Shown here: one piece after another, positions 7,422 through 21,240 of the stretch | Position numbering within the stretch: position 1 is the first letter of the stretch | Layout: every line of letters begins with the position of its first letter | DNA from: an uncultured bacterium | Lineage (GTDB): Bacteria > Patescibacteriota > Minisyncoccia > Phycocordibacterales > Phycocordibacteraceae | Reading direction: 5' to 3' | DNA length: 64,000 nucleotides | Assembly (NCBI GenBank): GCA_963851445.1 | Contig: CAWKPH010000001.1 | Location: forward strand, 617,363 to 681,362 | The notes under the pieces: generated by a model | Seen by the model: the letters and a program-made list of their open reading frames with translations, nothing else | Told to the model about the DNA's origin: nothing | Database searches by the model: none | Position numbers and translations under genes: made by a program

Positions 7422-7489
7422 ATACTCTAGTGGCGTGCTCCTTTTAGAAGGCGTAGAATGTTCACAACGCTCACTCGTTCACCGTCAAG

Positions 7490-8899
7490 GTGAACGTCGC
7501 ATGCTTCGTAACTGTTGATTATATGAAAACGACCGCTTATCTACCTGAATGGAAAATCTATCTTTGGAAAAAACTACTCTTGAACAAAGAGGAGTTCGAT
7601 AAAAAAGAACCCATGGTCGTCAGTTTCATGTTCTTTACTGATGAAGATCAAATGCAGTTAATGATGGCAGAGGGACGGCGTACGATTGATTCAATTCAAC
7701 ACACCTACGATACTGCATACAATGCTGCACTGGCTGGTCGTGCACGTACACAGCTTAATACCACTGGCCGCCATCCTATCACTGACGAGTATTACAACAA
7801 CGACCCCATAAGCATCATGGCTGCGCTTGTTGAGCTGATGGATACTAAACCGCAAGTACTTTCGATAACTGCACGCTTGCATAAGCAATACATCGAGCGG
7901 TATCGAGCTAAGAAGAGAGCATACGAAACATTGGAGCACCAAAAGCATCTGGCCAGTCTGGGCATGAGCAGATCAAGCAGCGGTCCCTACAAGCCAAATG
8001 ACAACTATCTGAACGACCCATTTTGTGATCTTGGTGAGAGTATTTATAAAAAGACAGAAGCTGGCCAAGCGCTCTCAGATGACGAGTTCAGAAAGTTGGC
8101 GAGCGCGAGGTATGCCACCTTACACGACTGTCTCGTGATGAAGATAAAAATACACAAACCCGCTCTTCAGGCAAAACTAGACGCGTACATTGATGACTTC
8201 GTGGCGGGGAATCTGGTGGGTCCGCCGGGAGTTCAGTATTTTGCGCCATGGATCCAAATAAGAGACGTGTTCGGGGCTTTACAGGTAATGACCCTCGACT
8301 TCGGTGTAAAAAATCTACTAGTCTCCCCTGAGGCTATTGCGACACATGGTGAATGGGAAGCGGGTCGTGAGAACCGATATCGAATCTTTGAATCACTCTT
8401 TGCTCTAGAAAAGGATCGTCGAGTCACCATTAGCGAGTTACGGAAAAGCGAGGTGATTCTTTCCGTGGTGACGGCAGACGAACGTGCTGCCTTAAGCCCT
8501 GAAAGCGCTTCGGTTGATGTGCCGAAAGAGATAAAGGACTGGGCATCAGAGGTCTACGACGTTGTCAAAGCTCATGCCGATGCTATGCCCAGCGTGAAAG
8601 ACGACATCCTCACAACATTCAGCACGCGTCCAGTCAGAGAGCTATCAGCGGCTGACAAGAAGAAGCTCTGCCTTCTGGAGAAGCTCAAGGAGGAATGGGA
8701 GCTTGTACCTAAGCAAAGTACCGATCCGACAATGGTTTACAAACATCGCGCCGGAGAGACATATATTTCAGGGTCCAGATTTAATGGCTGGATGAATCAG
8801 TGCGGGATAGAGGATTTTCACCAGCTACAAAATATACTTACCATATTCAAGCAAGAGGGACTCATTGAAGAGTTTAGTGTAACTGATGACTCTAGGTAA
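7490..8899 (+). CDS. hypothetical protein (469 aa), first gene of coupled pair
   Basis: Long ORF with protein-like composition and no recognisable motif. Its stop codon abuts the start of the next ORF (TAA-ATG). Confidence 0.5.
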   Translation: MNVACFVTVDYMKTTAYLPEWKIYLWKKLLLNKEEFDKKEPMVVSFMFFTDEDQMQLMMAEGRRTIDSIQHTYDTAYNAALAGRARTQLNTTGRHPITDEYYNNDPISIMAALVELMDTKPQVLSITARLHKQYIERYRAKKRAYETLEHQKHLASLGMSRSSSGPYKPNDNYLNDPFCDLGESIYKKTEAGQALSDDEFRKLASARYATLHDCLVMKIKIHKPALQAKLDAYIDDFVAGNLVGPPGVQYFAPWIQIRDVFGALQVMTLDFGVKNLLVSPEAIATHGEWEAGRENRYRIFESLFALEKDRRVTISELRKSEVILSVVTADERAALSPESASVDVPKEIKDWASEVYDVVKAHADAMPSVKDDILTTFSTRPVRELSAADKKKLCLLEKLKEEWELVPKQSTDPTMVYKHRAGETYISGSRFNGWMNQCGIEDFHQLQNILTIFKQEGLIEEFSVTDDSR

Positions 8900-9451
8900 A
8901 TGCATATGAGTAGCATACTACGGATTCGGTTCCCAAAAGATTTCGAGGAGCGCTACAGAAATTATGTAGCCGCTGTTAAGTCCGTGAGTCCAGAGCCCAT
9001 AAAGCCAGCTGAAGAACCTCGTGCTGAAGCGAGTCAAGATGAGTCAGAAGATACGAAGAAGAAGCCAAGAACCGAAGTTGGAAAAGACGGCCTCGGCTAC
9101 CTCATTTTTCATGACCAAAGAATACCGGTTGGTGACGCATCCAGCGGTAAGTTCAGACTGGCCGAAGTGCTCTGCCTCAATTTTGGAGTAGCTAAAACTA
9201 TCGTGGTTACCTTCGATGCTGCAAAAGTTAAAAGGAATGAAACGGATAATAACCTAGAAAGCTTGTATAGAGGGAACATTCTAAAGCTGAGACTTCTAGA
9301 GGGTCAGGCTAGAGAGATTAACAGGGCGATTACTGATTATGTGGCGCGGAAGAAGCTGAAAGACTTCAGATTCCGCATGGCTCTCAAGGTTGATAACAAA
9401 ACCAATCCCCATAGCGTGTGGCTTGTAGAGCGCGTGGTGCGACGTGGGTAG
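8900..9451 (+). CDS. hypothetical protein (183 aa), second gene of coupled pair
   Basis: Immediately follows 7490..8899. Has an acidic low-complexity N-terminal region. Followed by a hairpin and T-run at 9540-9568. Confidence 0.5.
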   Translation: MHMSSILRIRFPKDFEERYRNYVAAVKSVSPEPIKPAEEPRAEASQDESEDTKKKPRTEVGKDGLGYLIFHDQRIPVGDASSGKFRLAEVLCLNFGVAKTIVVTFDAAKVKRNETDNNLESLYRGNILKLRLLEGQAREINRAITDYVARKKLKDFRFRMALKVDNKTNPHSVWLVERVVRRG

Positions 9452-9539
9452 ATAATCATATATTTTTCATGGGAGACCAAATAATATTTATAAAATAAAG
9501 GTAAAAAAAGCAATAAGTCCCACCAGTTACCACCAGTCC

Positions 9540-9568
9540 ATCGAGGATTGGTGGTTTTGATTTACTCA
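9540..9568 (+). terminator. rho-independent terminator-like hairpin + T-run
   Basis: The hairpin ccaccag…(loop)…ttggtgg is followed by tttt, downstream of ORF 8900..9451. Confidence 0.45.
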
Positions 9569-9869
9569 ATCGCAAGCCCTTTCTGGTTGATGTTGAAAGC
9601 GCTCGAATGCAGTTGTATGCACTCGATGCACTCGAAGCAAACAGGAAGCGGCCTCGCGAATGACCACGACCGCTACCCATCTCAAAGCAAAGAGCATAGA
9701 AGATCTCCAGCAAATAATCCAACGAGATTATGGCGTTGTCCTCAATGACGAAGAAGCCGAAAAGTTCGGTCTCTCTTTGCTAAAAATCACTCGCCTCGCA
9801 ATGACTGCTTTTAACCGGACAGAGGATAAGCACGCCATAACAATTACAAACACAAGCTAACCTTTGTTT

Positions 9870-9921
9870 TCGAGTCGAGCTCCAGTGAAAAGACTTTGCG
9901 GTCGGCACTGGAGCTCGACTC
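9870..9921. promoter_or_regulatory. perfect 17-bp inverted repeat (cgagtcgagctccagtg / cactggagctcgactcg) immediately upstream of prim-pol gene
   Basis: The inverted repeat is seen directly in the sequence. It shares an 11-mer (agtcgagctcc) with the sequence flanking the tRNA att core at 24816-24826. Confidence 0.5.
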
Positions 9922-9938
9922 GGGAACCCGACCGCAAC

Positions 9939-12269
9939 ATGCAAAACGCTATACAGTCATCAATGCTCGCATATTTGGAGAAGGGATTCTCCGTCATTCC
10001 TATTGGCAGCGACAAGAAGCCACTCATTCCAACATGGAAAGAGTATCAATCCAAGCATCCGACCAAGGAAGAAATCACTAAATGGTGCAGTACGCTCAAT
10101 CCAGTGGGTATAGGTATCGTCACAGGCAAGATCTCAGGAATTGCAGTTTTGGATATAGACGTAGGCGCTGATACCAGCAGCCTGGAGTTACCATCAACGC
10201 CGAGCGTCAGAACTGGCGGTGGGGGCTGGCATCATTATTTCAAGTTTCCCTCGGGTGTTCTACTCCAAAGTTCGAATGGTTTCCGTCACAAGATGGATTT
10301 TAAGGCAGAAGGCGGCTACGTCATTGCGCCTCCTTCGCTCCATAAATCAGGGAAGCACTACGAATGGGCTGTCGCTCCCGAGGATGCGGATTATGCAGAG
10401 GTACCGTCCTGGTTGAAAGAAGAAATCGAATCAAGGGGCGGAGCCAAAAAGGATTGGAGCGCAATAACCGCTGGAGTCGCAGAAGGAGGTCGCAATAGCG
10501 CGGCCGCAGCATACATCGGCAAGCTTCTCCACGGCTTGCCTGAAGCCGACTGGGAGAGTATCGGGTGGGTTGGTGCTATTGCTTGGAATAAACAAAACAA
10601 GCCACCACTCCCAGAAAAGGAACTACGCAGCGTCTTTGATTCCATTGCGGCAACGGAAAAGAAGGGTAAGGGAGCGGACCGCGAAGATAACAGCCATGCG
10701 AGTAAGCTTATAAAACTCGTTCTAGCAACCGATGCGCTTCTTTTCCATGACCAATCTGGCGATGCCTATATCGCCTTGAACAACAGTGGCGCGGAAACAT
10801 TGAGATTGAAGTCAAAGCAGTTTAGCCACTGGCTTGCCAAGCTCAGTTGGGAAGAATACAAGAAACCAATTCGTAGTGAAGATATACGCACGGTCCTCGG
10901 GACACTGGCGGGTCTCGCCGTATTTAATGGTGAGGAGCATACACTGTATGTCCGCGTAGCTCTGAGTGGGGACGCGATTTGGTACGACCTCGGCGGCGCT
11001 GCCGTAAAAATATCGAAGGAAGGATGGGAAATCGTCGAAAATCCTCCCGTTCTCTTCCGTCGCTACCCACATCAGGAGGCGCAAGTGAGACCTGAGCGTG
11101 GAGGTTCGCTTGCGAAAATACTTGAGTTCATAAACATCAAAAATGAGTCGGAGCAATTGCTCATCATGGTTTGGTGTGTCGCAGCGATGGTGCCAGGCAT
11201 TCCGCATCCCTTCCCGATATTCCATGGACCGCAGGGGTCTGCAAAGAGTACGTGCGGGTCGGTGTTCAAACAGCTTCTCGATCCATCGCAGCTGCGTCTA
11301 TCCTCTCCTCCTGATAATCTACGTGAATTCATTCAAGTCGGGTCTCACCATTGGTTTCTCCCCATTGATAACCTCAGCAATCTCTACGAATGGCTTTCCG
11401 ATGCACTGTGCCGTGCGTGCACTGGCGAGGGGTTTAGCAAACGCGAACTCTATTCGGACGACGACGATGTCGTGTACTCGTTCCAGAATATTGGAAGCCT
11501 TAACGGCATCAACTTGGTAGTCGAGAAACCAGACCTCATGGAGCGATGTGTGATTTTCGGTCTTGAGAAGGTCGAGAGGGTTCAGAATCTAGCAAGTTTC
11601 AATGAACGCTTCAAGGAGGTTAAGCCCTTCATTCTAGGGGCGATGCTCGATACGCTCGTCGGTGCATTGCAGCGGGTCGATGATATTCCCGTGGAGAACC
11701 AGTTCCGCATGTCTGACTTCGCCCGCTGGGGCTGCGCCATCGCAGAGGCTCTCGGATACGAAGCCAAGGATTTCATCAGCACGTACCAGTCGAATATAGG
11801 GCTCCAGCACCAAGAAGCAGTCGATGCGAGCCCAGTAGCCCAGGCGATTGAGATGCTTATGGAGGCACAGGACGAGTGGCGTGGCACACCTACGGAACTT
11901 TATAACGAGCTTGAAAAGATAGCCGCTGACCAGCATCTCGATAAGAAAGCAAAGACCTGGCCGAATGCAGCAAGCTGGATGTGGCGTCGCATAACGCCCA
12001 TCGCCAGCAATCTTCTTGCGCGAGGAATTAGTATAGGTCGCTCAAGTGGAAAAGAGAGAGTAGTCATTCTCACCAAGGTCGGAGGGAATGCTGTAGATGC
12101 TGTCATTGGCACCGATGGAGCAGAAAACATATGGGAAACCGACGACAGCATCGGTAGCGTTGCTGCCAACTATGCTGACGGCGAAGACCAGCAGGAGCCG
12201 CTTGAGTTCGACAGCACGACAGCATCGACAGCATTTTTGGAGGAAAGTAGCGATGGATGGGGTGATTAA
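9939..12269 (+). CDS. bifunctional DNA primase/polymerase (Prim-Pol) N-terminal domain fused to P-loop (D5/VirE-like) NTPase domain; element replication protein
   Basis: Prim-Pol-like N-terminus (GFSVIPIGSDKKPLIPTWKEY…GIGIVTG…AVLDIDV…GGWHHYFKF…GGYVIAPPSLHKSGKHYEW). Walker A motif GPQGSAKST near residue 450. The start is taken at the Met at 9939, after the inverted repeat. Confidence 0.7.
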   Translation: MQNAIQSSMLAYLEKGFSVIPIGSDKKPLIPTWKEYQSKHPTKEEITKWCSTLNPVGIGIVTGKISGIAVLDIDVGADTSSLELPSTPSVRTGGGGWHHYFKFPSGVLLQSSNGFRHKMDFKAEGGYVIAPPSLHKSGKHYEWAVAPEDADYAEVPSWLKEEIESRGGAKKDWSAITAGVAEGGRNSAAAAYIGKLLHGLPEADWESIGWVGAIAWNKQNKPPLPEKELRSVFDSIAATEKKGKGADREDNSHASKLIKLVLATDALLFHDQSGDAYIALNNSGAETLRLKSKQFSHWLAKLSWEEYKKPIRSEDIRTVLGTLAGLAVFNGEEHTLYVRVALSGDAIWYDLGGAAVKISKEGWEIVENPPVLFRRYPHQEAQVRPERGGSLAKILEFINIKNESEQLLIMVWCVAAMVPGIPHPFPIFHGPQGSAKSTCGSVFKQLLDPSQLRLSSPPDNLREFIQVGSHHWFLPIDNLSNLYEWLSDALCRACTGEGFSKRELYSDDDDVVYSFQNIGSLNGINLVVEKPDLMERCVIFGLEKVERVQNLASFNERFKEVKPFILGAMLDTLVGALQRVDDIPVENQFRMSDFARWGCAIAEALGYEAKDFISTYQSNIGLQHQEAVDASPVAQAIEMLMEAQDEWRGTPTELYNELEKIAADQHLDKKAKTWPNAASWMWRRITPIASNLLARGISIGRSSGKERVVILTKVGGNAVDAVIGTDGAENIWETDDSIGSVAANYADGEDQQEPLEFDSTTASTAFLEESSDGWGD

Positions 12270-12703
12270 TGCCTATGACGAGAATCAACCGCACAGGCAT
12301 CAGCAAGCATATGCCATACACCATAAAAGAACTCACCGGTTTGTTGCATAAAAGCGAAAAGACGCTCGAACGGTGGATGGGCGCTGGCTTGCCAATCGTC
12401 CCTGGCGGTAAAAATCCAATCTTGATACTGGGCGACGACCTCATTGAGTTTCTCAAAAACAAAGATGCGAAACATAAGGTGAAGTTGAAACGAAATGAAT
12501 TTCTTTGCATGAAATGCAAACTACCGCGTCTCGCAAAAAGGGGCACACTCAAGATTCTGAGTGATAGAAAAGAAGGCAACTGCTGTGTCTGTAACAGCAA
12601 AATGAGCAAGCTAATTAAATCTCGTAGGAACCTACTATCTGATACCGCTGTCCCTGATATAAATGTCGGTTTTGACGACCCTCCGCCATCGCCCCTGGTA
12701 TGA
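12269..12703 (+). CDS. small zinc-ribbon/HTH-like protein
   Basis: 144 aa with CMKC…CCVCNSK Cys pairs. Its start overlaps the prim-pol stop (TAATG). Confidence 0.4.
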   Translation: MPMTRINRTGISKHMPYTIKELTGLLHKSEKTLERWMGAGLPIVPGGKNPILILGDDLIEFLKNKDAKHKVKLKRNEFLCMKCKLPRLAKRGTLKILSDRKEGNCCVCNSKMSKLIKSRRNLLSDTAVPDINVGFDDPPPSPLV

Positions 12704-13854
12704 CAAAAACCACCTATCAAAATGAGCAATTAAAGAGAGCCTTCTTCACCTACCTACGAGGTGCGAAGGGCTTTGAGAAAAGCTCTATTCACTCATATGC
12801 AGAAGCAGTCTGGCAATGGCAACTCTTTTCGGACGGCGATGACTTTGCCAGTTTTGATGAGTCAAAGGCATTAGCGTTTAAGGAATGGCTCTCCACTCGA
12901 CCGACCAAGACCAAGGCGGGGCGGCTCAGTCTTGCCACCCAATATAACTATCTCCGTCGCGTGAAGCGCTTTTTCTCATGGCTTTCGGATCGTCCTGGCT
13001 TCAAGAATAAGATACTGAAGGGTGATGTTGAGTTCCTACGCCTATCCAACAAGGACGCTCTTATAGCCCGATCTGGCTCGACCAGAGCCAATCCAACTCT
13101 TGAAGAAGCAAGAAAGCTTATCGAGGGCATTGAAATAAAAAATGAGGTAGACCAGCGGGATAGGGCACTCATCAGCTTTGCCGCAATCACTGGCTGCCGC
13201 ATCTCCGCCCTCATTTCCCTTAGGATGAAGAATTTTGATAAGGAAAAACGCTTGGTGTCCCAAAATCCCGGCGATGGTGTTCATACCAAGGATTCCAAGA
13301 AAATACTCACGCCATTGTATCCAATAGGATGGGACGCGCCTGAGCAGTACTTCATGGAGTGGTTCGAGCATCGTGAGGCAACGGGCTCTCAAGCAGACGA
13401 CCCTATATTCCCAGCAACGGTCGGTGAGATTGGTCGCGTTAAACCAGCTCACGGTAGCGGATTCGTCGGAAATGTTTTTTGGAGCAACCCATCGGGAGCC
13501 CGTAAGGTATTCCAGAAGAGGTGTATGGAAGCGGGCGTGCCGTATTTTCATCCTCACTCGTTTCGACACTTGGCCGTAAGCGTCATGGCAAAAATACCCC
13601 TTACCGAAGAACAGAAGCGTGCCTTTAGCATCACGCTCGGTCATGCCAATGTCACCACCACGTTCGGCTCCTATTGCAGCCGAAACATGAGCAATGAGGA
13701 AGCAGTCCAAATCGTCGAACAGATTAAGGCTTTTGAAGCAAAAGAGGCAGTAAGTGGTCCCACTTTCACGAATGAAGACCGTGCTACTTTAATGGGACTT
13801 TTAGAGAAAATGAAGGCTGCGGAAATCCCCACAACCCCCGATTTGGTCGGTTGA
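12700..13854 (+). CDS. tyrosine site-specific recombinase/integrase (phage integrase family)
   Basis: Catalytic-domain pattern: …TGCRISALISLRMKNF… HPHSFRHLAVSVM… LGHANVTTTFGSY (R…HxxR…Y). Confidence 0.8.
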   Translation: MTKTTYQNEQLKRAFFTYLRGAKGFEKSSIHSYAEAVWQWQLFSDGDDFASFDESKALAFKEWLSTRPTKTKAGRLSLATQYNYLRRVKRFFSWLSDRPGFKNKILKGDVEFLRLSNKDALIARSGSTRANPTLEEARKLIEGIEIKNEVDQRDRALISFAAITGCRISALISLRMKNFDKEKRLVSQNPGDGVHTKDSKKILTPLYPIGWDAPEQYFMEWFEHREATGSQADDPIFPATVGEIGRVKPAHGSGFVGNVFWSNPSGARKVFQKRCMEAGVPYFHPHSFRHLAVSVMAKIPLTEEQKRAFSITLGHANVTTTFGSYCSRNMSNEEAVQIVEQIKAFEAKEAVSGPTFTNEDRATLMGLLEKMKAAEIPTTPDLVG

Positions 13855-13886
13855 CATCTATGTACAACTAGGAGTATGCTTTACGT

Positions 13887-14072
13887 ATGAAATTCTTAAC
13901 GAGAGAAGAAGTAGCCAAGTACCTGCGCGTGCATCCCCGCACCATCGAACGCTGGCTCAAAAGCGGGACCTTGAAGGGATATAAGCTAGGAACCGGAAAG
14001 ACTTCTTTGTGGCGAATATCGGAAGATGAGTTAAAGAAGTTTTTGGAGAAGAATAAAGCTAAACCAATATGA
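13887..14072 (+). CDS. small HTH DNA-binding protein (excisionase/MerR-like)
   Basis: 61 aa (LTREEVAKYLRVHPRTIERWLKSGTLKGYKLG), a typical HTH_17/Xis-like fold. Overlaps the recombinase start. Confidence 0.55.
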   Translation: MKFLTREEVAKYLRVHPRTIERWLKSGTLKGYKLGTGKTSLWRISEDELKKFLEKNKAKPI

Positions 14073-15787
14073 ACCAACCAACAACCATTCGTTATGACGT
14101 GTATCTGCGAAGGTCCAGCAGCGATGCAGAGGATAAGCAGGTTCAATCAATTCCCGACCAGCGACGGGAGCTGAACGAGTACATCGCAAGAAACAACCTC
14201 ACCATCGTCGGAGAGTTCGAGGAATCGCAAAGTGCTCACCATCCCGGCAGACCAGTGTTCAACGAGGTCATGGGGCGTATTGAGAAAGGAGTCTCGAACG
14301 GGTTGCTCGTGTGGCACGCCAATCGTACCTCAAGAAATCCTGTAGACAGCGGCGCTATTATCAACCTTATCGACGAAGGCAAGCTCTTTCATGTCAGAAC
14401 GCCTTCCCACATATACGGCAACACCTCTACAGAAAAGATGATGCTCGCGCTTGAGTGTATGATCGCCAAAAAGGACTCGGACGATAAGAGTGACGCGGTG
14501 AAGCGAGGGCTCCGTGGCCGCTACAAAAAAGGACTCCCGAACGGTGTTGCTCCCATCGGCTTCATTAACGATGTTTCCGTTGAGAAGGGCAATCGTGGCT
14601 GGCTCGTGGATGAGGAGAAGTTCCCGCTCATTGCTCAAGTCTTGGAACTCTTTCACACGGGCAAATATTCGACCAGAGCGTTGCTTCGAATCGCTAACGA
14701 TGAGATGGGACTGCGTACGCCGCAGCACAAGAAACAAGGTGGAAAGAAACTTGTGTATTCGCACTTTATGGAGACCGTGCTCCAGAATCCAGTGTATGCA
14801 GGATTCTTCTTTGCAGATACTGATACGGAAAAAGGTAAAAAGTTTGAACTCGATGCGAGAGTGCCGCGAGCTATCAGCGAGGAGACGTACTGGGAGAATC
14901 AGAAGATACTCGGAAACAAAGGACGAGCGCGACCTTCGAAGAACAAAACATCCTTCGCCTATGTTGGACCGACGACATGCGGCGGGTGCGATGGCGTGGT
15001 GACGGCCGAGCATAAGTACCAGGTCATTTGCGACTGTAAGCTCAAGTTCTATTATATGAATAAAACAGAGTGCCCGGGATGCGGCGTCGCGATAGATAAA
15101 ATGGTAAATCCGCTCTATCTCCACTACGTTTACTACCACTGCACCCGTACCAAAGATCCGACGTGCCGCGAGGGCAGCGTCCAGGAGCTCTACATCGACG
15201 ACACACTCGCTTCGTACTTCAAGGAGAACTTCAAAATCTCACAGTCCTTGCACGACTGGTGCATAGAGAACCTTGAGACCCTCGATATTAAGGATGCAAA
15301 GAATGATGTCGAGAAAACAGCATCGCTGGAGACCACGCTTTCCAAGAAGCAGCATGAGCAGAGGGAACTCGTGCTAATGAAGGCACGCGGACTTCTTGCT
15401 GACGATGCTGAGTTCCTTGAGTTGAAAGGCATCCTGAAGGCAGAAATTGACGTGCTAGAGCAAGCTTTGGCCAAGAATGGAAAACCTATAGACCCAGCGA
15501 AAATCAAGAAGGCTCGCAGAGCGTTTGACCTCTCCCTTGGTATAGAAGAAATCTTCAAAAGTGGTACCCCAGAGGAGAAAAAAGACACCCTACTGGAAAT
15601 CGGATCGAACCTAACTATAAAAGCCAAAACACTCACTGTTTACAACAGCGGAGTGTATAAAAAGATTATAGATGGCCTACTTACCGCCAAGGCGATAAAT
15701 CCTTCGTTCGAACCTGAAAATTGTGAGGCAGATGCTGAACGAAATCCTGTTTTTGCCTCTGTGTTTCCTACTCTGCTCCGCGGGTAG
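14069..15787 (+). CDS. large serine recombinase (resolvase N-domain + recombinase domain + zinc ribbon)
   Basis: Resolvase catalytic N-terminus (YDVYLRRSSSDAED…), then a recombinase domain and Cys-rich zinc ribbon (CGGCDG…CDC…CPGCG), then a coiled-coil tail. The stop codon lies inside the tRNA-derived repeat. Confidence 0.8.
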   Translation: MNQPTTIRYDVYLRRSSSDAEDKQVQSIPDQRRELNEYIARNNLTIVGEFEESQSAHHPGRPVFNEVMGRIEKGVSNGLLVWHANRTSRNPVDSGAIINLIDEGKLFHVRTPSHIYGNTSTEKMMLALECMIAKKDSDDKSDAVKRGLRGRYKKGLPNGVAPIGFINDVSVEKGNRGWLVDEEKFPLIAQVLELFHTGKYSTRALLRIANDEMGLRTPQHKKQGGKKLVYSHFMETVLQNPVYAGFFFADTDTEKGKKFELDARVPRAISEETYWENQKILGNKGRARPSKNKTSFAYVGPTTCGGCDGVVTAEHKYQVICDCKLKFYYMNKTECPGCGVAIDKMVNPLYLHYVYYHCTRTKDPTCREGSVQELYIDDTLASYFKENFKISQSLHDWCIENLETLDIKDAKNDVEKTASLETTLSKKQHEQRELVLMKARGLLADDAEFLELKGILKAEIDVLEQALAKNGKPIDPAKIKKARRAFDLSLGIEEIFKSGTPEEKKDTLLEIGSNLTIKAKTLTVYNSGVYKKIIDGLLTAKAINPSFEPENCEADAERNPVFASVFPTLLRG

Positions 15788-15808
15788 GATTCGAACCTAC
15801 GAACCTAC
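15775..15808 (-). repeat. att-like direct repeat: partial copy of tRNA 3' end (T-arm+acceptor)
   Basis: gctccgcgggtaggattcgaacctacgaacc matches gctccgcgggtagggatcgaacctacgacc at 24822-24851 (about 27/30). It contains the T-loop GGTTCGAATCC on the minus strand. Confidence 0.65.
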
Positions 15809-15937
15809 ATTTTCTGGGAATGGAAATCCATTTAGGAAGTACGGCAAATATCAAGTAAGTGCGAGAGATTATTAGCAAAAGTGCAATTACCACTGATACC
15901 CACACATCATCAAAACTAACCAACTCTTATCACTTCT

Positions 15938-15960
15938 AGGGCAACCCATGGGCAACCATG
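15938..15960. repeat. GGGCAACC tandem repeat (candidate integrase arm-type site), left arm
   Basis: gggcaacccatgggcaaccatgg, about 155 bp from the att core. A near-identical copy (gggcaacccgtgggcaaccactgg) lies at 24688-24712, about 130 bp from the other core. Confidence 0.45.
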
Positions 15961-16107
15961 GACATTACCAACAAAGAGCAGTACATCAGAGTGATAAAAG
16001 TTGAATCTTCAAACGCTGCTTCGCAGTGGTTCTTACTATTGCTGCTGGCTCAAACAATGCTCCCGCCCGGAAGCACGTTCTGTCCCAAGGAGCTATACTT
16101 AGACGTA

Positions 16108-16325
16108 TGAAAATGCACGAACTATTTTCCAAGACAGAGGTAGATGGACGTTTTGAAGCACAAATTGACATGGTTCTTGTGAACGGAAAAGAAATAAAAA
16201 AGGGGCAAAAAGTAGACCTCGATAGCTTAGGTCTTGATTCTTATTTTGACGACGAAGCTTCTGTAGGAGGCCAAATTGCAAATGGAGTGTTTTGTTGGAG
16301 TGGTACCGTACGCAGCGATGTTTGA
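16108..16325 (+). CDS. small hypothetical protein
   Basis: 72-aa ORF from an internal Met of the 16026..16325 ORF. No motif was recognised. Confidence 0.2.
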
Positions 16326-16330
16326 CCGTT

Positions 16331-17482
16331 CTATAATGGCTTTCTTACATCCGGACTTGGAACGTACCCGTAGTGCCTGAGAGCACCATTCAAAGTATTA
16401 AAGAACTCTGGATCAGGCGCAGGGTACTTTGGATGAGGAATAATCACACCCATACTCTCACCTTGCTCTGCCTCGTTCTCGCTCTGATAGTGATAAGAGA
16501 AGTTGGTAAAGAAAGCTGCATTTAAAGGATAGTCACCTGGGTCAAGTCCTTTTAGCTTTTTGGTTACCATCGTCTTTGCTTCTTGAACCCAAGGCTTTTC
16601 ATCCAATGCAACATTTGGAGTAGCAGGTAAGTTTACGTCTATGAAAATTGCGAAAGGAACGTCTTTCGGATTTTGAGTGAGGGCTTCGTTGAAAGTTCTT
16701 CTCATTCGTGCCGAGAGCTCTTCCACGGGGCTTCCTTCTTCGTGTATCACTCCAGCTCTGTGCTTGCTCTTAACCTCCACAGCGAGCGTAAAACCGGTTT
16801 CTCTGTGTTTAGCAACAAACTCACAATGCTTATTCTTACTATTTACATCTGTCCATTCGATGTCACAACCCATCCTTGAGAAAATAGCTGCTATTGCGAT
16901 TTCGTAACGAGCACCTTGATACTCTCGACGTGATTTCAAACGCTGAAGTAATGTCTCTGGCAATATGTTCTTCTGAACGAGACTGCTTACATCAAAAGCG
17001 AGCAAAAGTAATGATTTAACATACCCGTCCGGCATTGCGTTTAAGGGTCCATCTAAAGGTATGTTTCCTATACGTGCTCTCTCACGCAGTATCCACTCAC
17101 CAGTTTTTGCTAGGCATAAAGCGATGTAGTGCCGCTCATTGAGAGGAAGTTTCATTTGTTCTTCCCACCACTCGACTCCCAAGGTGCGTTTCAGCACATC
17201 CACTAAGAACTCATGGAAGGTCTGATTTACATCGTTAGAAGTGTAGATTGCACTTCCAAAAGCCCATACTTTCTTGCCATTAAAGATTACTGGCTCGACG
17301 TAGTGATCAAAGAGACCTGCTTGATGTCGAAGATCTCGTTCCGCTTGTTGTTTCTGGAAAAACTCGATAACTTCTTTGGGTATGGTAGGGGCAGGAGCCG
17401 TATCTTTATTCCAGCAACAATTTTTATACTTTATTCCGCTCCCGCAGTGACACGGAAGATTTCTGTCAGATCCTTTACCCAT
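16331..17482 (-). CDS. SEC-C motif-containing hypothetical protein
   Basis: N-terminal CHCGSGIKYKNCC (SEC-C metal-binding motif). The remaining ~350 aa have no recognisable catalytic motif. Confidence 0.55.
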   Translation of the reverse strand: MGKGSDRNLPCHCGSGIKYKNCCWNKDTAPAPTIPKEVIEFFQKQQAERDLRHQAGLFDHYVEPVIFNGKKVWAFGSAIYTSNDVNQTFHEFLVDVLKRTLGVEWWEEQMKLPLNERHYIALCLAKTGEWILRERARIGNIPLDGPLNAMPDGYVKSLLLLAFDVSSLVQKNILPETLLQRLKSRREYQGARYEIAIAAIFSRMGCDIEWTDVNSKNKHCEFVAKHRETGFTLAVEVKSKHRAGVIHEEGSPVEELSARMRRTFNEALTQNPKDVPFAIFIDVNLPATPNVALDEKPWVQEAKTMVTKKLKGLDPGDYPLNAAFFTNFSYHYQSENEAEQGESMGVIIPHPKYPAPDPEFFNTLNGALRHYGYVPSPDVRKPL

Positions 17483-17662
17483 ACCTACAATTTACTCCTT
17501 TTAACTCTTGATGCTAGGACGGGGAATGGCCTTCACTCCTATTATCTATATGAGAGTGTAGGGCAATCATTTTGTCTGAGAAGATTGTGACAGAACTTGA
17601 CAAAACACCTAAATATGTGTAATATCGTATACGGCTACAAGTCCCTTTACAAAAGGTTCAAC

Positions 17663-17751
17663 CAATCGAGACGAGCTTTTTACGGCTTACCTTCAGTGCG
17701 CAAGTTCTGGACGATTTTTACAACTAGGCCGTAAAAAGCTCGTCTCGATGT
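17663..17751. promoter_or_regulatory. long inverted repeat (21-bp stems: tcgagacgagctttttacggc / gccgtaaaaagctcgtctcga) in divergent intergenic region upstream of DGR target gene
   Basis: Perfect stems separated by about 38 nt. Located between the divergent genes 16331..17482(-) and 17761..18525(+). Confidence 0.45.
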
Positions 17752-17760
17752 GAGACAGAC

Positions 17761-18525
17761 GTGTCCGACGTATTCGGGCTATGGAGACCTTCGATGTCCA
17801 ACATCGACACTCTCGACAAGGCTACCAGTATTCTCGGCACCTGCATCAGGCTGGTGCGCTTGCTCGCTACGGGCGGCGCCACTATCGACCAGCTGCAAGC
17901 GCCCATCAGCATCAAGAGCAAGCGCGAAAACCTGCTGGCCTACCTCGCCGCCGACTGTCCCAAGTTCACGATCGAAGGCGGTGTCGCCATCGCTAAGGCG
18001 CCCAAAGCGCCGAAGCTTCCCGGCAGCGATCGCGTGAAAATCGTCAATAAGACGACCATCAAGGTCAACTGCGGTGCCGATTCCAAGCTCCCGTTCAACG
18101 GAGCCGTGATCGATACCAACTCGGGCGACCGCTGGGTCACGGTCCAAAAGCGCGGCGACGATCTCTATGTCGACGACGTGAAGGTCGACCTGCACCTCGA
18201 CGAAGGCCAGCAAAACGGCAAGGTGTTGCAAGGCCACAAGCTGCGCACCGCCCTCGCTAAGATGACGTCGGTTCATCCGAACGTCATCGACGCCGCCATC
18301 GAACATGGCCTGATGCCGGAAAGCTGGAAAGTGGATGAAAACGGCAAGACCCGCTTCATCTTCTCCTTCGCCGTCATCTTCCGCGACCCGACGCGCGACG
18401 ACCTGTGCGTCCGGTTCTGGTACTGGCGCGAGGGTCGCTGGCAGTCGAACTACCGCTGGCTCTACGATGGCTGGTACGGCATCAGCCCCACGGCCGTGCT
18501 CGGCAAGGTTGAACCTAAGGCCTAA
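17761..18525 (+). CDS. DGR target protein (putative C-type-lectin-fold variable protein) with C-terminal variable repeat
   Basis: The C-terminal ~40 codons (…DPTRDDLCVRFWYWREGRWQSNYRWLYDGWYGISPTAVLG) are homologous to the downstream TR. The region is markedly GC-rich. The real start may be the Met at 17797. Confidence 0.7.
   Translation: MSDVFGLWRPSMSNIDTLDKATSILGTCIRLVRLLATGGATIDQLQAPISIKSKRENLLAYLAADCPKFTIEGGVAIAKAPKAPKLPGSDRVKIVNKTTIKVNCGADSKLPFNGAVIDTNSGDRWVTVQKRGDDLYVDDVKVDLHLDEGQQNGKVLQGHKLRTALAKMTSVHPNVIDAAIEHGLMPESWKVDENGKTRFIFSFAVIFRDPTRDDLCVRFWYWREGRWQSNYRWLYDGWYGISPTAVLGKVEPKA
18379..18506 (+). repeat. DGR variable repeat (VR)
   Basis: 128 bp aligned with the TR at an offset of +521. 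About 16 mismatches, every one at a position where the TR has A. Confidence 0.8.
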
Positions 18526-18579
18526 GCTCCTCGGGTCTCTCAGACTCTTAGGACTTAGTTCTGCATTTTGGGCTCCGCA

Positions 18580-18625
18580 TTTCGTCATCGCGACGGGTGC
18601 GGAGCTTTTCTTTTGCACCACAAGG
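18580..18625 (+). terminator. GC-rich hairpin + T-run downstream of VR/target gene (terminator and/or DGR homing-associated stem-loop)
   Basis: gggctccgca…tgcggagc stem followed by ttttcttttg. It lies about 75 nt after the VR end. Confidence 0.45.
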
Positions 18626-18899
18626 GCATTTCTATTTCTAAATCGCTTCGCTCAAAACAAAATAATGTCATATAGTAGAAACGGTAGTAGGCGAGTACGG
18701 AAGCGATTACGGTTGCTTCCTGCCGAATCCAGTATCCATAGACCGAGAGCGTTTCTGATTACGATTTCAAACGGAGAGGTGTATGTAGAAACTTCAAAAA
18801 TGAAGATACTTGGTGCGAAGCGCTAGGGCATTGCGATGCCGAATACGATTCAACCCGGAGAGTACTCGATGGGTGGTGGCACAGATGGCGCTCCGCACA

Positions 18900-19027
18900 T
18901 TCCGCAACCCGACGAACGACAACCTGTACGTCCGGTACTGGTACTGGAACGAGGGTCGCTGGCAGTCGAACTACAACTGGCTCAACAATGACTGGAACGG
19001 CAACAACCCCACGGCCGTGCTCGGCAA
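18900..19027 (+). repeat. DGR template repeat (TR), non-coding
   Basis: Adenine-rich template (AAC codons in the VR frame). It differs from the VR only at TR adenines. The 3' 21 bp (ccccacggccgtgctcggcaa) are identical in VR and TR. Confidence 0.8.
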
Positions 19028-19033
19028 CTCTCT

Positions 19034-19423
19034 TCATTTCTCTCCCGTACTAACGGGAGAGTTTTGTTTCGTGAGTTGTCCGTTCCATCCGCCGAGCATT
19101 TTTCCAACGTCTTCGAGCGGGACAGACAAGATTGCGTATTTTTTCGTATCAAATGATTTCGTTTCCCAAAGCACCATGAGCAGCACTTTCAGAGTGTCGA
19201 GCTTGCGTATCGCAAGTCGCACGTACGGTTGCTTTTCATTTCGCGCGAGGAAACCAGCACAGGCTATCGCTTCTATGATTTCAATAAAGAGAGTGTCCAC
19301 GCGTTCGCCCGAACTATACCGATGTATCTTCGGAATCGTCTGGTAAAATCCACACCATAGGACATATGTCGATTTCACACGCTCTAACACTGGTAAAAGG
19401 TTCGGGGGGGGGGGTACTTTCAT
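19034..19423 (-). CDS. avd: Avd-like accessory variability determinant (four-helix-bundle protein), encoded on the opposite strand
   Basis: 129 aa. The pattern LERVKSTYVLWCGFYQTIPKIHRYS…LDTLKVLLMVLWE…ILSVPLEDVGKMLGGW resembles bAvd/PF05635 four-helix-bundle proteins. The N-terminal poly-Pro is encoded by a poly-G/C homopolymer. Confidence 0.65.
   Translation of the reverse strand: MKVPPPPNLLPVLERVKSTYVLWCGFYQTIPKIHRYSSGERVDTLFIEIIEAIACAGFLARNEKQPYVRLAIRKLDTLKVLLMVLWETKSFDTKKYAILSVPLEDVGKMLGGWNGQLTKQNSPVSTGEK
19403..19414. repeat. homopolymeric G tract (~10-12 nt) inside the avd start region / upstream of RT
   Basis: tcgggggggggggtac, seen directly. The exact length is ambiguous in my reading (the ORF coordinates imply 11-12 G). 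Confidence 0.6.
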
Positions 19424-19428
19424 AGGTT

Positions 19429-20127
19429 ATGGATTGTATTCAGTATACGGATACATACGAGAATATCATCTCCGTGGAGAATCTCCTTGAAGCGTGGCGG
19501 GAGTTTAAAAGAGGCAAAAAGCATCGCGCTGATGTGCAGCATTTCGAGAGGAACCTGTTATCCCACGTACTGAATCTGCATGAAGACCTGTCCGTTATGC
19601 GATACGTGCATGACGGATACGAAGCATTCCGCATCACCGATCCGAAGCCGCGAGACATACACAAGGCAAGCGTACGGGACAGGCTCCTCCATCATGCAAT
19701 TTATCGAAAGCTCTACCCATTCTTTGACCGCGTGTTCATAAGCGACTCGTATTCATGCAGGAAGGATAAGGGCTCGCATAAGGCGCTCGCGCGCTTCCGT
19801 GCTTATGCCTATAAAGCCTCATCAAACCACATGCGTACCGTATGGATTCTGAAATGTGACATACGAAAGTTCTTCGCTTCGATAGACCATGGAGTGCTAG
19901 TGAATATTCTGAAGCGGTATATCCCCGACGAACGCATCATGTGGCTGTTCGGACAGGTGATCATGAGCTTCAACACTGAGCGGCAGGGAACAGGGCTTCC
20001 GCTAGGCAACCTCACCTCGCAGCTCTTGGTGAATGTGTACATGAACGATTTCGACCAGTTCGCAAAACATAACCGGTATGCTGTTTTTAGTCTTCCTCAT
20101 CACTGTGATATGGCGAGGAATGAATAA
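19429..20127 (+). CDS. DGR-type reverse transcriptase, apparently truncated (fingers/palm motifs 1-4 present; YxDD not found)
   Basis: The RT motifs are present: ILKCDIRKFFASIDH and …GLPLGNLTSQLLVNVYMNDFDQF. The ORF stops about 20 aa later (…KHNRYAVFSLPHHCDMARNE*) without a YADD box, and no continuing frame was found. Confidence 0.65.
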   Translation: MDCIQYTDTYENIISVENLLEAWREFKRGKKHRADVQHFERNLLSHVLNLHEDLSVMRYVHDGYEAFRITDPKPRDIHKASVRDRLLHHAIYRKLYPFFDRVFISDSYSCRKDKGSHKALARFRAYAYKASSNHMRTVWILKCDIRKFFASIDHGVLVNILKRYIPDERIMWLFGQVIMSFNTERQGTGLPLGNLTSQLLVNVYMNDFDQFAKHNRYAVFSLPHHCDMARNE

Positions 20128-21217: not shown

Positions 21218-21240
21218 GATTCCCAGACTAATCCGATGCC

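What the first reader, a model, noticed from the sequence alone, without database searches (positions are those of the whole stretch)
9870..15808. Second, tandem integrative element carrying Prim-Pol replication protein plus both a tyrosine integrase and a large serine recombinase
Immediately to the left of element B lies a module of Prim-Pol/P-loop replication protein, Zn-ribbon protein, tyrosine integrase, HTH protein and large serine recombinase. The serine recombinase stop codon lies inside the tRNA-derived att repeat. This suggests serial insertions at the same tRNA, a known island hotspot. Carrying two different recombinase classes in one module is unusual. The left boundary is not clear. 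The only candidate is an 11-mer shared with the att flank (agtcgagctcc at 9872-9882), embedded in a perfect 17-bp palindrome.
Basis: partly seen in the sequence, partly recalled or inferred. Interest (0 to 1): 0.65.

Follow-up and report, generated by a model that had tools for sequence, protein, structure and literature searches.

The report
Serine-recombinase island at tRNA-Asn, Patescibacteria
The region is the core of an 8.3-kb mobile element of a candidate-phyla-radiation bacterium that a large serine recombinase, not the tyrosine one, most likely inserted at the very end of a tRNA-Asn gene; a second element later landed in the same tRNA.

Summary
The genes are as described: Prim-Pol/P-loop protein, HTH+Zn-ribbon protein, tyrosine recombinase (YR), excisionase-like HTH, large serine recombinase (LSR). 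The LSR stop codon lies inside a 28-nt copy of a tRNA 3' end.

The tRNA is tRNA-Asn(GUU), split by a group I intron. In all 10 related Patescibacteria loci where sequence continues, the LSR ORF runs antisense into the tRNA-Asn 3' end, down to 41% LSR identity.

LSR and Prim-Pol are 79-82% identical between genomes whose fmt is only 36% identical. The closest chromosomal relatives lack the element or carry an LSR remnant. So it is mobile, not backbone.

About 20 LSR homologues carry a conserved native C-terminal tail, which I read as the ORF crossing attP. That tail located left ends in L005 and L010. A matching DNA motif places the window's left end at 7437-7468, not at the 9872 palindrome. 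That palindrome is a conserved hairpin in front of Prim-Pol.

Element A is 7437-15779. Element B, with its own tyrosine integrase, inserted later.

The YR is optional (4 of 11 elements), yet all 11 YR relatives examined sit upstream of a tRNA-end LSR from one of three clades. Its role is unresolved. This is a new variant of a known kind.

The parts
7437..7468 (+). Candidate left junction of element A: GCTCC core (7437-7441) followed by the P'-arm-like motif GTAGAATGTTCACAAC (7453-7468). It lies in the spacer between the CAP-domain gene and the 469-aa ORF.
   Evidence: The same GCTCC occurs at the right junction. The motif matches the L005 left junction GTAGACATGTTCAGAAC. It is the only other exact match to GTAGA-N0-2-TGTTCA-N-AAC in the window plus all loci, both strands. 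The L005 and L010 left junctions were found through the conserved LSR C-terminal tail.
7490..9451 (+). Cargo or unknown genes of element A: a 469-aa ORF (7490-8899) and a 183-aa ORF (8900-9451).
   Evidence: The C-terminal 97 aa of the 469-aa ORF are 40% identical to the first gene inside the L005 element. There are no Pfam, NCBIfam, PHROG or PADLOC matches.
9529..9555 (+). Terminator-like hairpin separating the cargo from the core module.
   Evidence: 11-bp stem followed by a T run.
9660..9860 (+). u66, a 66-aa protein that is the first gene of the conserved core module. It is a candidate regulator or directionality factor (inferred).
   Evidence: Homologues (47-62% identity) occur upstream of Prim-Pol, the YR or the LSR in L005, L010, L014, L015, L016 and L018, with a weak match in L022.
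9866..9936 (+). Conserved hairpin (arms 9866-9887 / 9906-9927). Loop bases 9895-9904 are complementary to 9927-9936, just 5' of the Prim-Pol ATG.
   Evidence: The same two pairings occur, with different sequences, in L010, L018 and L005.
9939..12269 (+). Replication protein: Prim-Pol + PriCT_1 + a P-loop C-terminal domain.
   Evidence: Pfam PF09250 at 1.1e-30 and PF08708. PHROG primase/polymerase families. Walker-A-like GPQGSAKST. 82% identical in L010, 61-67% in L018 and L005.
12098..12233 (.). Cluster of five GACAGCA repeats at the 3' end of the Prim-Pol gene. Candidate iterons or origin (inferred).
   Evidence: Five of the window's nine copies lie within 136 nt. The same GACAGCA-type repeat array follows Prim-Pol in L018, around 2565-2592.
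12269..12703 (+). 144-aa HTH_17 + zinc-ribbon protein, the constant partner of the YR.
   Evidence: Pfam HTH_17. Cys motifs. Found upstream of the YR in L010, L015, L022, L025 and L028.
12700..13854 (+). Tyrosine recombinase of simple architecture (core-binding + catalytic domains, no room for an arm-binding domain). An optional accessory gene.
   Evidence: Pfam PF00589. The catalytic R-K-H-x-x-R-H-Y residues are conserved in 8 relatives. Weak best matches are to XerA/XerD/XerC and XerH. Present in 4 of 11 Asn-type elements. Every relative examined is linked to an LSR.
13851..13880 (+). Promoter-like site TTGACA-18-TATGCT, placed to drive HTH61-LSR.
   Evidence: The best hit of the scan, 10 of 12 positions. 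Conserved at the same place in L010, L012 and L027.
13887..14072 (+). 61-aa excisionase-family HTH. Its stop codon overlaps the LSR start codon.
   Evidence: TIGR01764 at 1.3e-14 and HTH_17 at 1e-15. Found only in the YR-bearing Asn-type elements L010, L012 and L027.
14069..15787 (+). Large serine recombinase, the inferred integrase of element A. The ORF reads across the junction into the antisense tRNA.
   Evidence: Pfam PF00239 and PF07508. PHROG 95 integrase at 3.4e-50. PDB SPbeta YokA/SprA at 1.9e-10. 103 invariant residues across 11 genes, including R14, S17 and nine Cys. Abuts tRNA-Asn in all related loci.
15707..15715 (+). TTCGAACCT, encoding Phe-Glu-Pro, kept with identical codons in all 11 LSR genes. 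Role unexplained.
   Evidence: Only 7 of 100 invariant degenerate residues keep one codon in all 11 genes, and three of them are these consecutive codons. TTCGAACC recurs in the adjacent tRNA T-arm fragment at 15790-15797.
15775..15802 (-). Displaced 3' end of tRNA-Asn. It is both the right junction of element A (GCTCC 15775-15779) and the distal att copy of element B.
15803..24822 (.). Element B, the later insertion. Genes: SEC-C protein, diversity-generating retroelement, His phosphatase, AAA_25, HTH_17, and a tyrosine integrase at 23627-24769 next to the tRNA.
   Evidence: In relatives the LSR abuts an uninterrupted tRNA-Asn.
24823..25448 (-). tRNA-Asn(GUU). Exons 25448-25415 and 24861-24823. 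Group I intron 24862-25414 carrying an HNH-like ORF.
   Evidence: Rfam RF00028. The spliced sequence is called tRNA-Asn(gtt) by ARAGORN. The proximal att copy is 24823-24850.

Best explanation
Window 7437-15779 is an 8.3-kb integrative element of a Patescibacteria (Paceibacteria-type) genome, and is probably able to replicate on its own.

Inferred mechanism: its large serine recombinase recombined an attP site that lies in the last codons of its own gene with an attB site formed by the extreme 3' end of tRNA-Asn(GUU) and the downstream spacer. The crossover is within or next to GCTCC. As a result:
- The integrated LSR ORF loses its native tail of about 30 residues and ends on a few residues encoded by the antisense tRNA.
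- No long direct repeat is made.
- The tRNA stays intact.

The element's P' arm (GTAGAATGTTCACAAC) resembles the tRNA T-arm (GTAGGATTCGAACC).

The core module is u66, hairpin, Prim-Pol (with iteron-like repeats), then [HTH/Zn-ribbon + tyrosine recombinase + small HTH], then the LSR. The cargo lies to the left.

Later, element B (15803-24822) used its own tyrosine integrase and a 28-bp core in the T-arm and acceptor stem of the same tRNA. It pushed element A away and left a 28-nt tRNA fragment attached to A.

The tyrosine recombinase of element A is not the tRNA integrase. It is an optional accessory cassette that travels with tRNA-end LSRs. My best guess, about 35-40%, is a Xer/Cre-like resolvase acting on the excised or replicating circle or on tandem copies.

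Shown: gene content, the junction anatomy across loci, the discordance with host genes, and the native-tail forms of the LSR. Inferred: catalysis by the LSR, the exact crossover, replication, and the role of the YR.
For: 1. LSR-tRNA adjacency. In L010, L003, L012, L006, L015, L016 and L017 (ARAGORN) and in L014 and L018 (exon matches), the LSR ORF overlaps the 3' end of a minus-strand tRNA-Asn. LSR identity to the window ranges from 79% down to 41%. Similarity among loci stops exactly at ..CCTACTCT|GCTCC.

2. Mobility.
- L010 versus the window: LSR 79%, Prim-Pol 82%, YR 70%, but fmt 36% and def 58%. L012, L014 and L015 behave alike.
- The closest chromosomal relatives (fmt 68%) are different. 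L019 has an intron-bearing tRNA-Asn and no LSR. L020 has only a 287-aa LSR remnant that ends ..GLRG in the tRNA. L021 has no LSR.
- Synteny with the window stops at the tRNA.
- Cargo differs between elements: restriction-modification, SMODS/SLATT, methylases.

3. attP inside the ORF. About 20 of 120 LSR homologues continue after PTLL with a conserved tail (x-L-x-D/N-x-F/V-R-T...) instead of tRNA-encoded residues. P0004 and P0041 are 56% identical overall but essentially identical over the last ~55 residues.

4. Left ends.
- In L005 the tail coding sequence follows GCTCC at 1571-1575, between a chromosomal dehydrogenase gene and the first element gene.
- In L010 a diverged copy follows GCTCC at 738-742, next to the DsbD-domain gene taken to be chromosomal.
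- In the window, GCTCC 7437-7441 plus a unique DNA motif shared with L005.

5. No repeat of the tRNA end of 11 nt or more lies upstream in any locus. This fits a serine-recombinase junction.

6. The LSR looks intact: 103 invariant residues including R14, S17 and nine Cys.

7. The YR is optional (4 of 11 elements), internal to the element, and of simple architecture.
Against: - No excised circle or empty site of this particular element was seen.
- The window's left-junction motif lies 6 nt further from GCTCC than in L005, and its reading frame is shifted by 1 nt. The peptide tail is therefore lost, and this copy may be decaying or the junction may be mis-placed by a few bases.
- Left junctions could not be found in L014, L015, L016 or L017.
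- P and P' arms show no clear dyad symmetry.
- The strict nucleotide conservation of TTCGAACCT about 60 nt inside the LSR gene is not explained by this model.
- For the YR role: no dif- or lox-like site was found. YR presence does not track the presence of a replication gene: L015, L025 and L028 have a YR but no recognisable replicase.
Confidence: 0.78

Rival explanations
1. One reading: a classical tRNA island in which the tyrosine integrase inserted the element at the tRNA. The serine recombinase is an extra passenger, and the left end is at the 9872 11-mer and palindrome.
For: Tyrosine integrases are the usual tRNA integrators (established knowledge). Element B next door works that way. The 11-mer is really present.
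Against: - The YR gene is 1.9 kb from the tRNA fragment, and it is absent from 7 of 11 related elements that still sit at tRNA-Asn.
- No third copy of the tRNA end exists.
- u66, to the left of 9872, belongs to the element.
- The hairpin is conserved with different stem sequences inside elements whose ends are elsewhere.
Confidence: 0.04
2. Conserved chromosomal backbone: an LSR gene domesticated next to tRNA-Asn and inherited vertically, with a variable region beside it.
For: LSR, tRNA-Asn, hibernation factor, fmt and def are neighbours in many Patescibacteria genomes.
Against: - LSR and Prim-Pol identities (68-82%) far exceed those of fmt and def (36-58%) in the same genome pairs.
- The closest relatives by fmt lack the LSR or carry a remnant.
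- About 20 homologues have an uninterrupted ORF with a different, conserved tail.
- Left junctions with the matching tail lie 8-11 kb away.
Confidence: 0.05
3. Composite: the HTH/Zn-ribbon + YR (+ small HTH) cassette is itself a small mobile unit that inserts into LSR elements. On this view the two recombinases belong to two nested elements.
For: - Presence/absence polymorphism between otherwise collinear elements. L018 has Prim-Pol followed directly by the LSR. L005 and L003 have methylases in the same slot.
- The YR is 57-60% identical in elements whose LSRs are only 20-30% identical and that use tRNA-Gln or tRNA-Arg.
Against: - No flanking repeats were found.
- The Prim-Pol stop codon overlaps the cassette's first start codon, and the cassette's last stop codon overlaps the LSR start codon, leaving no room for att sites.
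- No YR relative was seen away from an LSR in 11 contexts.
Confidence: 0.1
4. Phage satellite or degraded prophage (integrase + primase module of the PICI or P4 type).
For: An integrase, excisionase-like HTH and Prim-Pol module resembles satellite cores (established knowledge). PHROG matches exist for Prim-Pol, the integrases and the excisionase.
Against: - No capsid, terminase or packaging-redirection genes are present in this or related elements.
- Neither the Prim-Pol nor the LSR has relatives in IMG/VR.
Confidence: 0.05

Closest known systems
Serine integrases / large serine recombinases (phiC31, Bxb1, A118/LI, SPbeta SprA, CcrAB, TnpX)
   Same: Resolvase catalytic domain, recombinase domain and a Cys-rich zinc-ribbon region. 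The gene sits at the very end of the element. There is no long direct repeat at the junctions. A small HTH gene lies upstream, as with SprB-type directionality factors.
   Different: - The target is the 3' terminus of a tRNA gene. Sister clades abut tRNA-Gln and tRNA-Arg. To my knowledge the characterised serine integrases use sites in protein-coding genes or spacers.
- attP appears to lie inside the integrase ORF, so the C-terminal tail is exchanged on integration.
- The host is Patescibacteria.
- Sequence similarity to solved or curated members is weak (SprA 1.9e-10; XisF 59 bits against a cut-off of 375).
Tycheposons of Prochlorococcus (Hackl et al., bioRxiv 10.1101/2020.12.28.424599)
   Same: A site-specific integrase (910 of 937 tyrosine-type, the rest large serine recombinases), plus primase/helicase-type replication genes, plus cargo. 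They integrate at tRNA genes, and tandem junctions are reported.
   Different: - Different phylum.
- No homology to tycheposon hallmark families was tested here.
- Here the serine recombinase is the rule, and a tyrosine recombinase is a second, non-integrative companion.
SSV1-type archaeal integrases, whose attP lies inside the integrase gene
   Same: The attachment site is inside the recombinase ORF, so integration changes the gene product. The target is a tRNA gene.
   Different: Those are tyrosine recombinases, and integration splits the gene into two large parts. Here only about the last 30 codons are swapped and the catalytic protein stays whole. (This comparison is from my own knowledge and was not tested here.)
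Classical tRNA-integrating genomic islands with a tyrosine integrase (such as element B in this window)
   Same: tRNA hotspot. The integrase lies at the tRNA-proximal end. Accretion in tandem.
   Different: Element A has no duplicated tRNA 3' segment at its far end (only GCTCC is shared), and its tyrosine recombinase is internal and dispensable.
Phages carrying both serine and tyrosine integrases (Gordonia phages; Psychrobacillus phage Perkons, PMC13245101)
   Same: Both recombinase classes occur in one mobile element. In Perkons the serine integrase was the one found to be active.
   Different: Those are described as rare, individual cases. Here the pair recurs: all 11 YR relatives examined are linked to an LSR, out of a YR family of at least 411 protein clusters, and across three LSR clades.
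Xer-type simple tyrosine recombinases and plasmid or phage dimer resolvases (XerA/XerH/XerS, Cre-loxP)
   Same: Two-domain architecture without an arm-binding domain. A complete catalytic set. The best, though weak, sequence matches are to XerA/XerD/XerC/XerH.
   Different: - Scores are far below the family cut-offs (50 bits against 220 or more).
- It is 384 aa long, with a C-terminal extension.
- It always has an HTH/Zn-ribbon partner.
- No dif- or lox-like site was found.

Membership tests
Large serine recombinase (serine integrase) | N-terminal resolvase catalytic domain with the nucleophilic Ser and conserved Arg residues | tested here: met
   PF00239 at 61.6 bits against a cut-off of 23.3. 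R14, S17, R61, R86 and R89 are invariant in 11 genes.
Large serine recombinase (serine integrase) | Recombinase domain following the catalytic domain | tested here: met
   PF07508 at 23.5 bits against a cut-off of 21.1. The PDB match to SPbeta YokA/SprA covers residues 12-311.
Large serine recombinase (serine integrase) | Zinc-ribbon domain with an embedded coiled coil | tested here: inconclusive
   Nine invariant Cys between residues 304 and 398. PF13408 is recorded for family members P0061 and P0118 and for the L020 remnant. It was not detected in the window protein itself, and no structure was predicted.
Large serine recombinase (serine integrase) | Short att sites with a 2-bp crossover and no long duplication at the junctions | tested here: inconclusive
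   No repeat of 11 nt or more. Only GCTCC is shared by the left and right junctions in L005, L010 and the window. The crossover itself was not mapped.
Large serine recombinase (serine integrase) | Catalyses attP x attB integration, with excision requiring a directionality factor | not testable with these tools
   The candidate directionality factors (u66, the 61-aa HTH) are inferred only.
Classical tyrosine-integrase tRNA island (for element A) | Element flanked by a direct repeat of the tRNA 3' segment, with the tyrosine integrase adjacent to the tRNA | tested here: not met
   The window holds only two copies of the repeat, and both belong to element B. The YR is internal and is absent from 7 of 11 relatives.
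Tycheposon-like integrative replicative elements | Site-specific integrase + replication gene + tRNA integration + cargo, forming arrays | tested here: met
   LSR, Prim-Pol, tRNA-Asn, and a tandem arrangement with element B. This is a functional resemblance only.
Tycheposon-like integrative replicative elements | Homology to the tycheposon hallmark gene families | not tested
   No tycheposon profiles were available in the tools.
Xer-type simple tyrosine recombinase (for the YR) | Core-binding + catalytic domains only, with the catalytic R-K-H-x-x-R-H/W-Y residues | tested here: met
   The SAM-like domain starts at residue 15. The catalytic residues are conserved in 8 sequences.
Xer-type simple tyrosine recombinase (for the YR) | Scores above the curated XerA/XerC/XerD model cut-offs | tested here: not met
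   50.4, 41.2 and 45.6 bits against cut-offs of 220, 335 and 330.
Xer-type simple tyrosine recombinase (for the YR) | A cognate dif- or lox-like site (two inverted arms around a 6-8-bp spacer) | tested here: inconclusive
   None was found near the gene or shared among YR-bearing loci. Weak sites could have been missed.
PICI- or P4-like phage satellite | Packaging or capsid-redirection genes, and dependence on a helper phage | tested here: not met
   No such genes were found in this or related elements. There are no relatives in IMG/VR.

The most novel reading that the evidence does not exclude
A widespread, undescribed family of Patescibacteria mobile elements in which large serine recombinases integrate at the termini of tRNA genes (Asn, Gln, Arg). 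On this reading attP is built into the end of the recombinase ORF and mimics the tRNA T-arm. A conserved Xer-like tyrosine recombinase with an HTH/Zn-ribbon partner then supplies a second, mechanistically distinct recombination step, either resolution or excision of the replicating circle. That would be an obligate two-recombinase division of labour rather than redundancy.
Probability: 0.3. Interest if true: 0.75.

Novelty: new variant of a known kind. Interest (0 to 1): 0.6.

Why it matters
- The full-text searches made here found no description of such mobile elements in candidate-phyla-radiation bacteria. This gives a defined element family with predicted attP, attB, junctions and core genes, in genomes of only about 0.7 Mb.
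- Serine integrases are prized genome-engineering tools. A large family (at least 120 clusters listed) with a predictable, highly conserved tRNA-end target, and an attP readable from the gene itself, is directly testable.
- The recurrent serine/tyrosine recombinase pairing poses a clear question: what does the second recombinase do? The question can be addressed with a few recombination assays.
- The result also corrects the boundaries of the island array at this tRNA, and shows that ARAGORN missed the target tRNA because it is split by an intron.

Tried and rejected
- Search for a third copy of the tRNA-derived repeat in the window, and for displaced tRNA fragments in 9 loci. None was found.
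- Search for an inverted copy of the LSR-side arm, by ungapped matching and by a position weight matrix. There were no convincing hits.
- Synteny of left-flank genes (DsbD, AhpC, kinase and others) against the window. No matches.
- Synteny with the three closest chromosomal relatives. It stops at the tRNA and gives no left flank.
- Short-word blastn of left regions among loci. It found only a LOOT RNA shared by L014, L015 and L016, and one coding match.
- Prim-Pol and LSR against IMG/VR. Nothing.
- PADLOC on candidate cargo. Nothing.
- Search for a dif- or lox-like site for the YR near its gene and among YR-bearing loci. Nothing.
- The 26-nt similarity between 9820-9845 and 14127-14152 was rejected as chance, because both stretches encode an E-D-K motif.
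- A T-loop-centred crossover was rejected. The acceptor-stem sequence varies with the host, and no displaced fragment exists.
- The GAAAATTGT match between the window LSR and the L019 flank was rejected, because it is not conserved in other LSR genes.
- An in-frame PLLDPERT preceded by CCTTGCTCC at about L015 position 677 was not accepted as a junction, because it lies inside a long helicase ORF.
- Structure prediction and the representative-protein search were not used, because they would not have decided any open point.

Full report
**1. What is in the region**

- A 776-aa Prim-Pol + PriCT_1 protein with a P-loop motif (GPQGSAKST), at 9939-12269.
- A 144-aa HTH_17 protein with a C-terminal zinc ribbon, at 12269-12703.
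- A 384-aa tyrosine recombinase (YR), at 12700-13854.
- A 61-aa excisionase-family HTH, at 13887-14072.
- A 572-aa large serine recombinase (LSR), at 14069-15787.

Start and stop codons overlap at three of the four gene boundaries. The best promoter-like site of the region (TTGACA-18-TATGCT, 13851-13880) sits at the YR stop codon, in front of the small HTH and the LSR. It is conserved in three related loci.

**2. The att repeat and the tRNA**

The 28-nt repeat 15775-15802 / 24823-24850 is real. It is the T-arm and acceptor 3' strand of a minus-strand tRNA. ARAGORN does not report this tRNA because a group I intron interrupts it (Rfam RF00028). The intron carries an HNH-like ORF. Joining exons 25448-25415 and 24861-24823 gives a 73-nt tRNA-Asn(GTT).

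Element B (15803-24822) is a classical island. Its tyrosine integrase (23627-24769) and an HTH_17 gene lie next to the tRNA, and it also carries an AAA_25 protein and a diversity-generating retroelement.

**3. Relatives**

The LSR has close relatives only in Patescibacteria metagenome-assembled genomes: Kaiserbacteria, Taylorbacteria, Minisyncoccia and Pacebacteria. The family is large: 120 clusters listed at 39-100% identity.

Ten distinct related loci continue past the LSR gene. In every one, the ORF runs antisense into the 3' end of tRNA-Asn:
- The tRNA is uninterrupted in L010, L003, L012, L006, L015, L016 and L017.
- It carries an intron in L014 and L018.

The alignment of junctions shows conservation up to ..CCTACTCT and then the host's own tRNA sequence starting with GCTCC. 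The acceptor-stem bases differ between hosts. In the window the same junction is followed by only 28 nt of tRNA and then by element B. So B inserted between element A and the tRNA.

**4. Mobile, not backbone**

The neighbourhood tRNA-Asn, hibernation factor, fmt, def is conserved. That could suggest backbone, but three observations argue against it:
- LSR, Prim-Pol and YR are 79, 82 and 70% identical between the window and L010, whereas fmt is 36% and def 58%. L012, L014 and L015 show the same discordance.
- The closest chromosomal relatives (fmt 68%) either have an intron-bearing tRNA-Asn with no LSR (L019), carry only a 287-aa catalytically truncated LSR remnant ending in the tRNA (L020), or have no LSR (L021).
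- Cargo differs from element to element: NgoFVII-type restriction-modification, type I restriction-modification with SMODS/SLATT, an AAA_25 protein, and methylases.

Four independent assemblies break at the LSR/tRNA junction: the Logan contig carrying the identical LSR, plus L005, L011 and L013.

**5. attP lies in the LSR gene, and this locates the left end**

After the conserved PTLL, most LSR homologues end with residues encoded by the antisense tRNA (RG, RR, RE, REQDSNLQPTP and similar). About 20 of the 120 instead continue with a conserved tail, x-L-x-D/N-x-F/V-R-T.... I read these as the uninterrupted ORF crossing attP.

P0004 and P0041 are 56% identical overall yet virtually identical over their last ~55 residues. 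This fits module exchange at or near the site.

Searching for this tail in the loci gave three left junctions:
- L005: PNVDMFRTLVW is encoded directly after GCTCC at 1571-1575. This lies in an ORF-free stretch between a chromosomal short-chain dehydrogenase gene and the first element gene.
- L010: a diverged copy (PAVELTDSFRC) follows GCTCC at 738-742, between the DsbD-domain gene (taken to be chromosomal) and the element.
- Window: the DNA of the L005 arm, GTAGACATGTTCAGAAC, recurs as GTAGAATGTTCACAAC at 7453-7468. It lies 11 nt after GCTCC 7437-7441, in the spacer between the CAP-domain gene and the 469-aa ORF. No other exact match to the pattern exists in the window or in any locus, on either strand.

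Independently, the C-terminus of that 469-aa ORF is homologous to the first gene of the L005 element. A homologue of the CAP gene sits on the chromosomal side of another element, in L022.

Element A is therefore 7437-15779 (8.3 kb), with GCTCC at both ends.

The P' motif resembles the tRNA T-arm (GTAGGATTCGAACC). This suggests how one protein reads both attP and attB.

Caveats:
- In the window the motif is 6 nt further from GCTCC than in L005.
- The tail frame is shifted by one base.
- Left ends were not found in L014-L017.

**6. The palindrome**

The inverted repeat 9866-9927 lies between the u66 stop codon (9860) and the Prim-Pol ATG (9939). The same hairpin exists in L010, L018 and L005, in three different sequence versions. 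In all of them, the 3' part of the loop is complementary to the 10-11 nt just before the Prim-Pol start codon.

With a 22-bp stem and no linker, the two pairings probably alternate rather than forming a true pseudoknot. That is my own steric reasoning.

The arrangement is a leader ORF ending a few bases upstream, with a loop pairing to the region next to the start codon of a replication gene. It recalls the translational control of repZ/repA in IncI-alpha and IncB plasmids. This is a resemblance from memory and was not tested.

So it is a control or origin structure, not an att site. The shared 11-mer is chance.

**7. The tyrosine recombinase**

It has the full catalytic set and a simple two-domain architecture. 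It has only weak similarity to Xer proteins.

It is present in 4 of 11 Asn-type elements:
- L018 has u66, Prim-Pol and LSR only.
- L005 and L003 carry two ParB_N-methylase genes in the same slot.

The family itself is large and tight: at least 411 clusters, with the top 120 at 54-71% identity. All 11 contexts seen contain an LSR downstream in the same orientation:
- It is adjacent in L022-L027. In L022 and L025 the LSR is about 30% identical to the window's and overlaps tRNA-Gln(CTG).
- It is 4.8 kb away in L028. There the LSR is about 20% identical and overlaps the 5' end of tRNA-Arg(TCG).

The partner HTH/Zn-ribbon gene always precedes it. No recombination site for it was found.

I conclude it is an accessory recombinase tied to the biology of tRNA-end LSR elements. 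Resolution of multimers of the excised replicon is my leading guess. It is weakened by YR-bearing elements that have no recognisable replicase.

**8. Comparison with the known**

Functionally the element resembles the following:
- Tycheposons: an integrase, a primase and cargo at tRNAs, forming arrays.
- Serine-integrase prophages.
- SSV1-type systems, in that the att site lies inside the integrase gene.

Phages with both integrase classes are reported as rare curiosities.

The full-text searches I made did not turn up such elements in Patescibacteria, or serine integrases targeting tRNA termini. That is absence of evidence in the held library only.

**9. Verdict**

- It is wrong about the left boundary, and silent on which recombinase does the work.
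- This is a new variant of a known kind, of moderate to good interest.

Noticed in passing
window 24823-25448 (-): tRNA-Asn(GUU) is interrupted in the anticodon loop by a 553-nt group I intron carrying an HNH-like ORF (ORF 24971-25390). ARAGORN misses the gene. Intron-bearing tRNA-Asn genes also occur in L014, L018 and L019, and GIY-YIG ORFs lie next to the tRNA in L012 and L017. I am not aware of group I introns having been described in tRNA-Asn.
   Followed up: partly
window 17761-20127 (element B): Diversity-generating retroelement: a bAvd-like gene at 19034-19423 (-), a reverse transcriptase at 19429-20127, and a 128-nt template/variable repeat pair at 18379-18506 / 18900-19027 (88% identical). 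A similar retroelement sits inside the related element L028.
   Followed up: no
window 9866-9936; L010 5777-5865; L018 214-288; L005 3293-3363: Conserved hairpin whose loop can pair with the 10-11 nt preceding the Prim-Pol start codon. Both pairings covary across three sequence versions. The u66 stop codon lies 6 nt upstream. It looks like a translational switch for the replication gene, or an origin structure.
   Followed up: partly
window 15707-15715: TTCGAACCT (Phe-Glu-Pro) keeps identical codons in all 11 LSR genes compared, although only 7 of 100 invariant degenerate residues do so. TTCGAACC also occurs in the tRNA T-arm fragment 75 nt downstream. GGTTCGAACC-like motifs appear in the tRNA-Gln-type LSR genes and upstream of the LSR in L005 and L003. 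In P0004 versus P0041 the near-identical block starts at this motif. This nucleotide-level constraint is unexplained.
   Followed up: partly
window 12098-12233; L018 around 2565-2592: Cluster of GACAGCA repeats (5 of the window's 9 copies) at the end of the Prim-Pol gene, conserved in L018. It looks like a set of iterons.
   Followed up: partly
L014 5378-5498, L015 6532-6656, L016 8045-8176: LOOT RNA (Rfam RF03000, 81-85 bits), a structured RNA of unknown function, lies in or beside three of the related LSR elements. There is none in the window.
   Followed up: no
L022, L025 (tRNA-Gln CTG); L028 (tRNA-Arg TCG): Sister LSR clades (30% and 20% identical to the window's) also end inside tRNA genes. 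The Gln type overlaps the 3' end antisense, with the same ..ACTCTGCT junction. The Arg type overlaps the 5' end in the sense orientation. All carry the same YR family.
   Followed up: partly
L020 4840-5764: In one of the closest chromosomal relatives, a 287-aa N-terminally truncated LSR (zinc-ribbon part only) still ends ..GLRG inside tRNA-Asn. It is a decayed element at the same site.
   Followed up: partly
L001, L005, L011, L013 contig ends: Four independent assemblies end within 0-100 nt of the LSR stop/tRNA junction. This would fit population heterogeneity (excision or further insertions) at this site.
   Followed up: no
window 1-2000: GC content drops to 32-35%, against 45-52% elsewhere. 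The stretch holds a 587-aa ORF (173-1936) with no family match. It may be another foreign segment.
   Followed up: no
window 3843-5525: The 560-aa protein matches the NCBIfam MmpA family (trehalose lipid delivery protein) at 149 bits, below the cut-off of 210. Its neighbours are PG_binding_1, CAP and Laminin_G_3 proteins, so this looks like a chromosomal cluster of secreted or surface proteins flanking the island.
   Followed up: no
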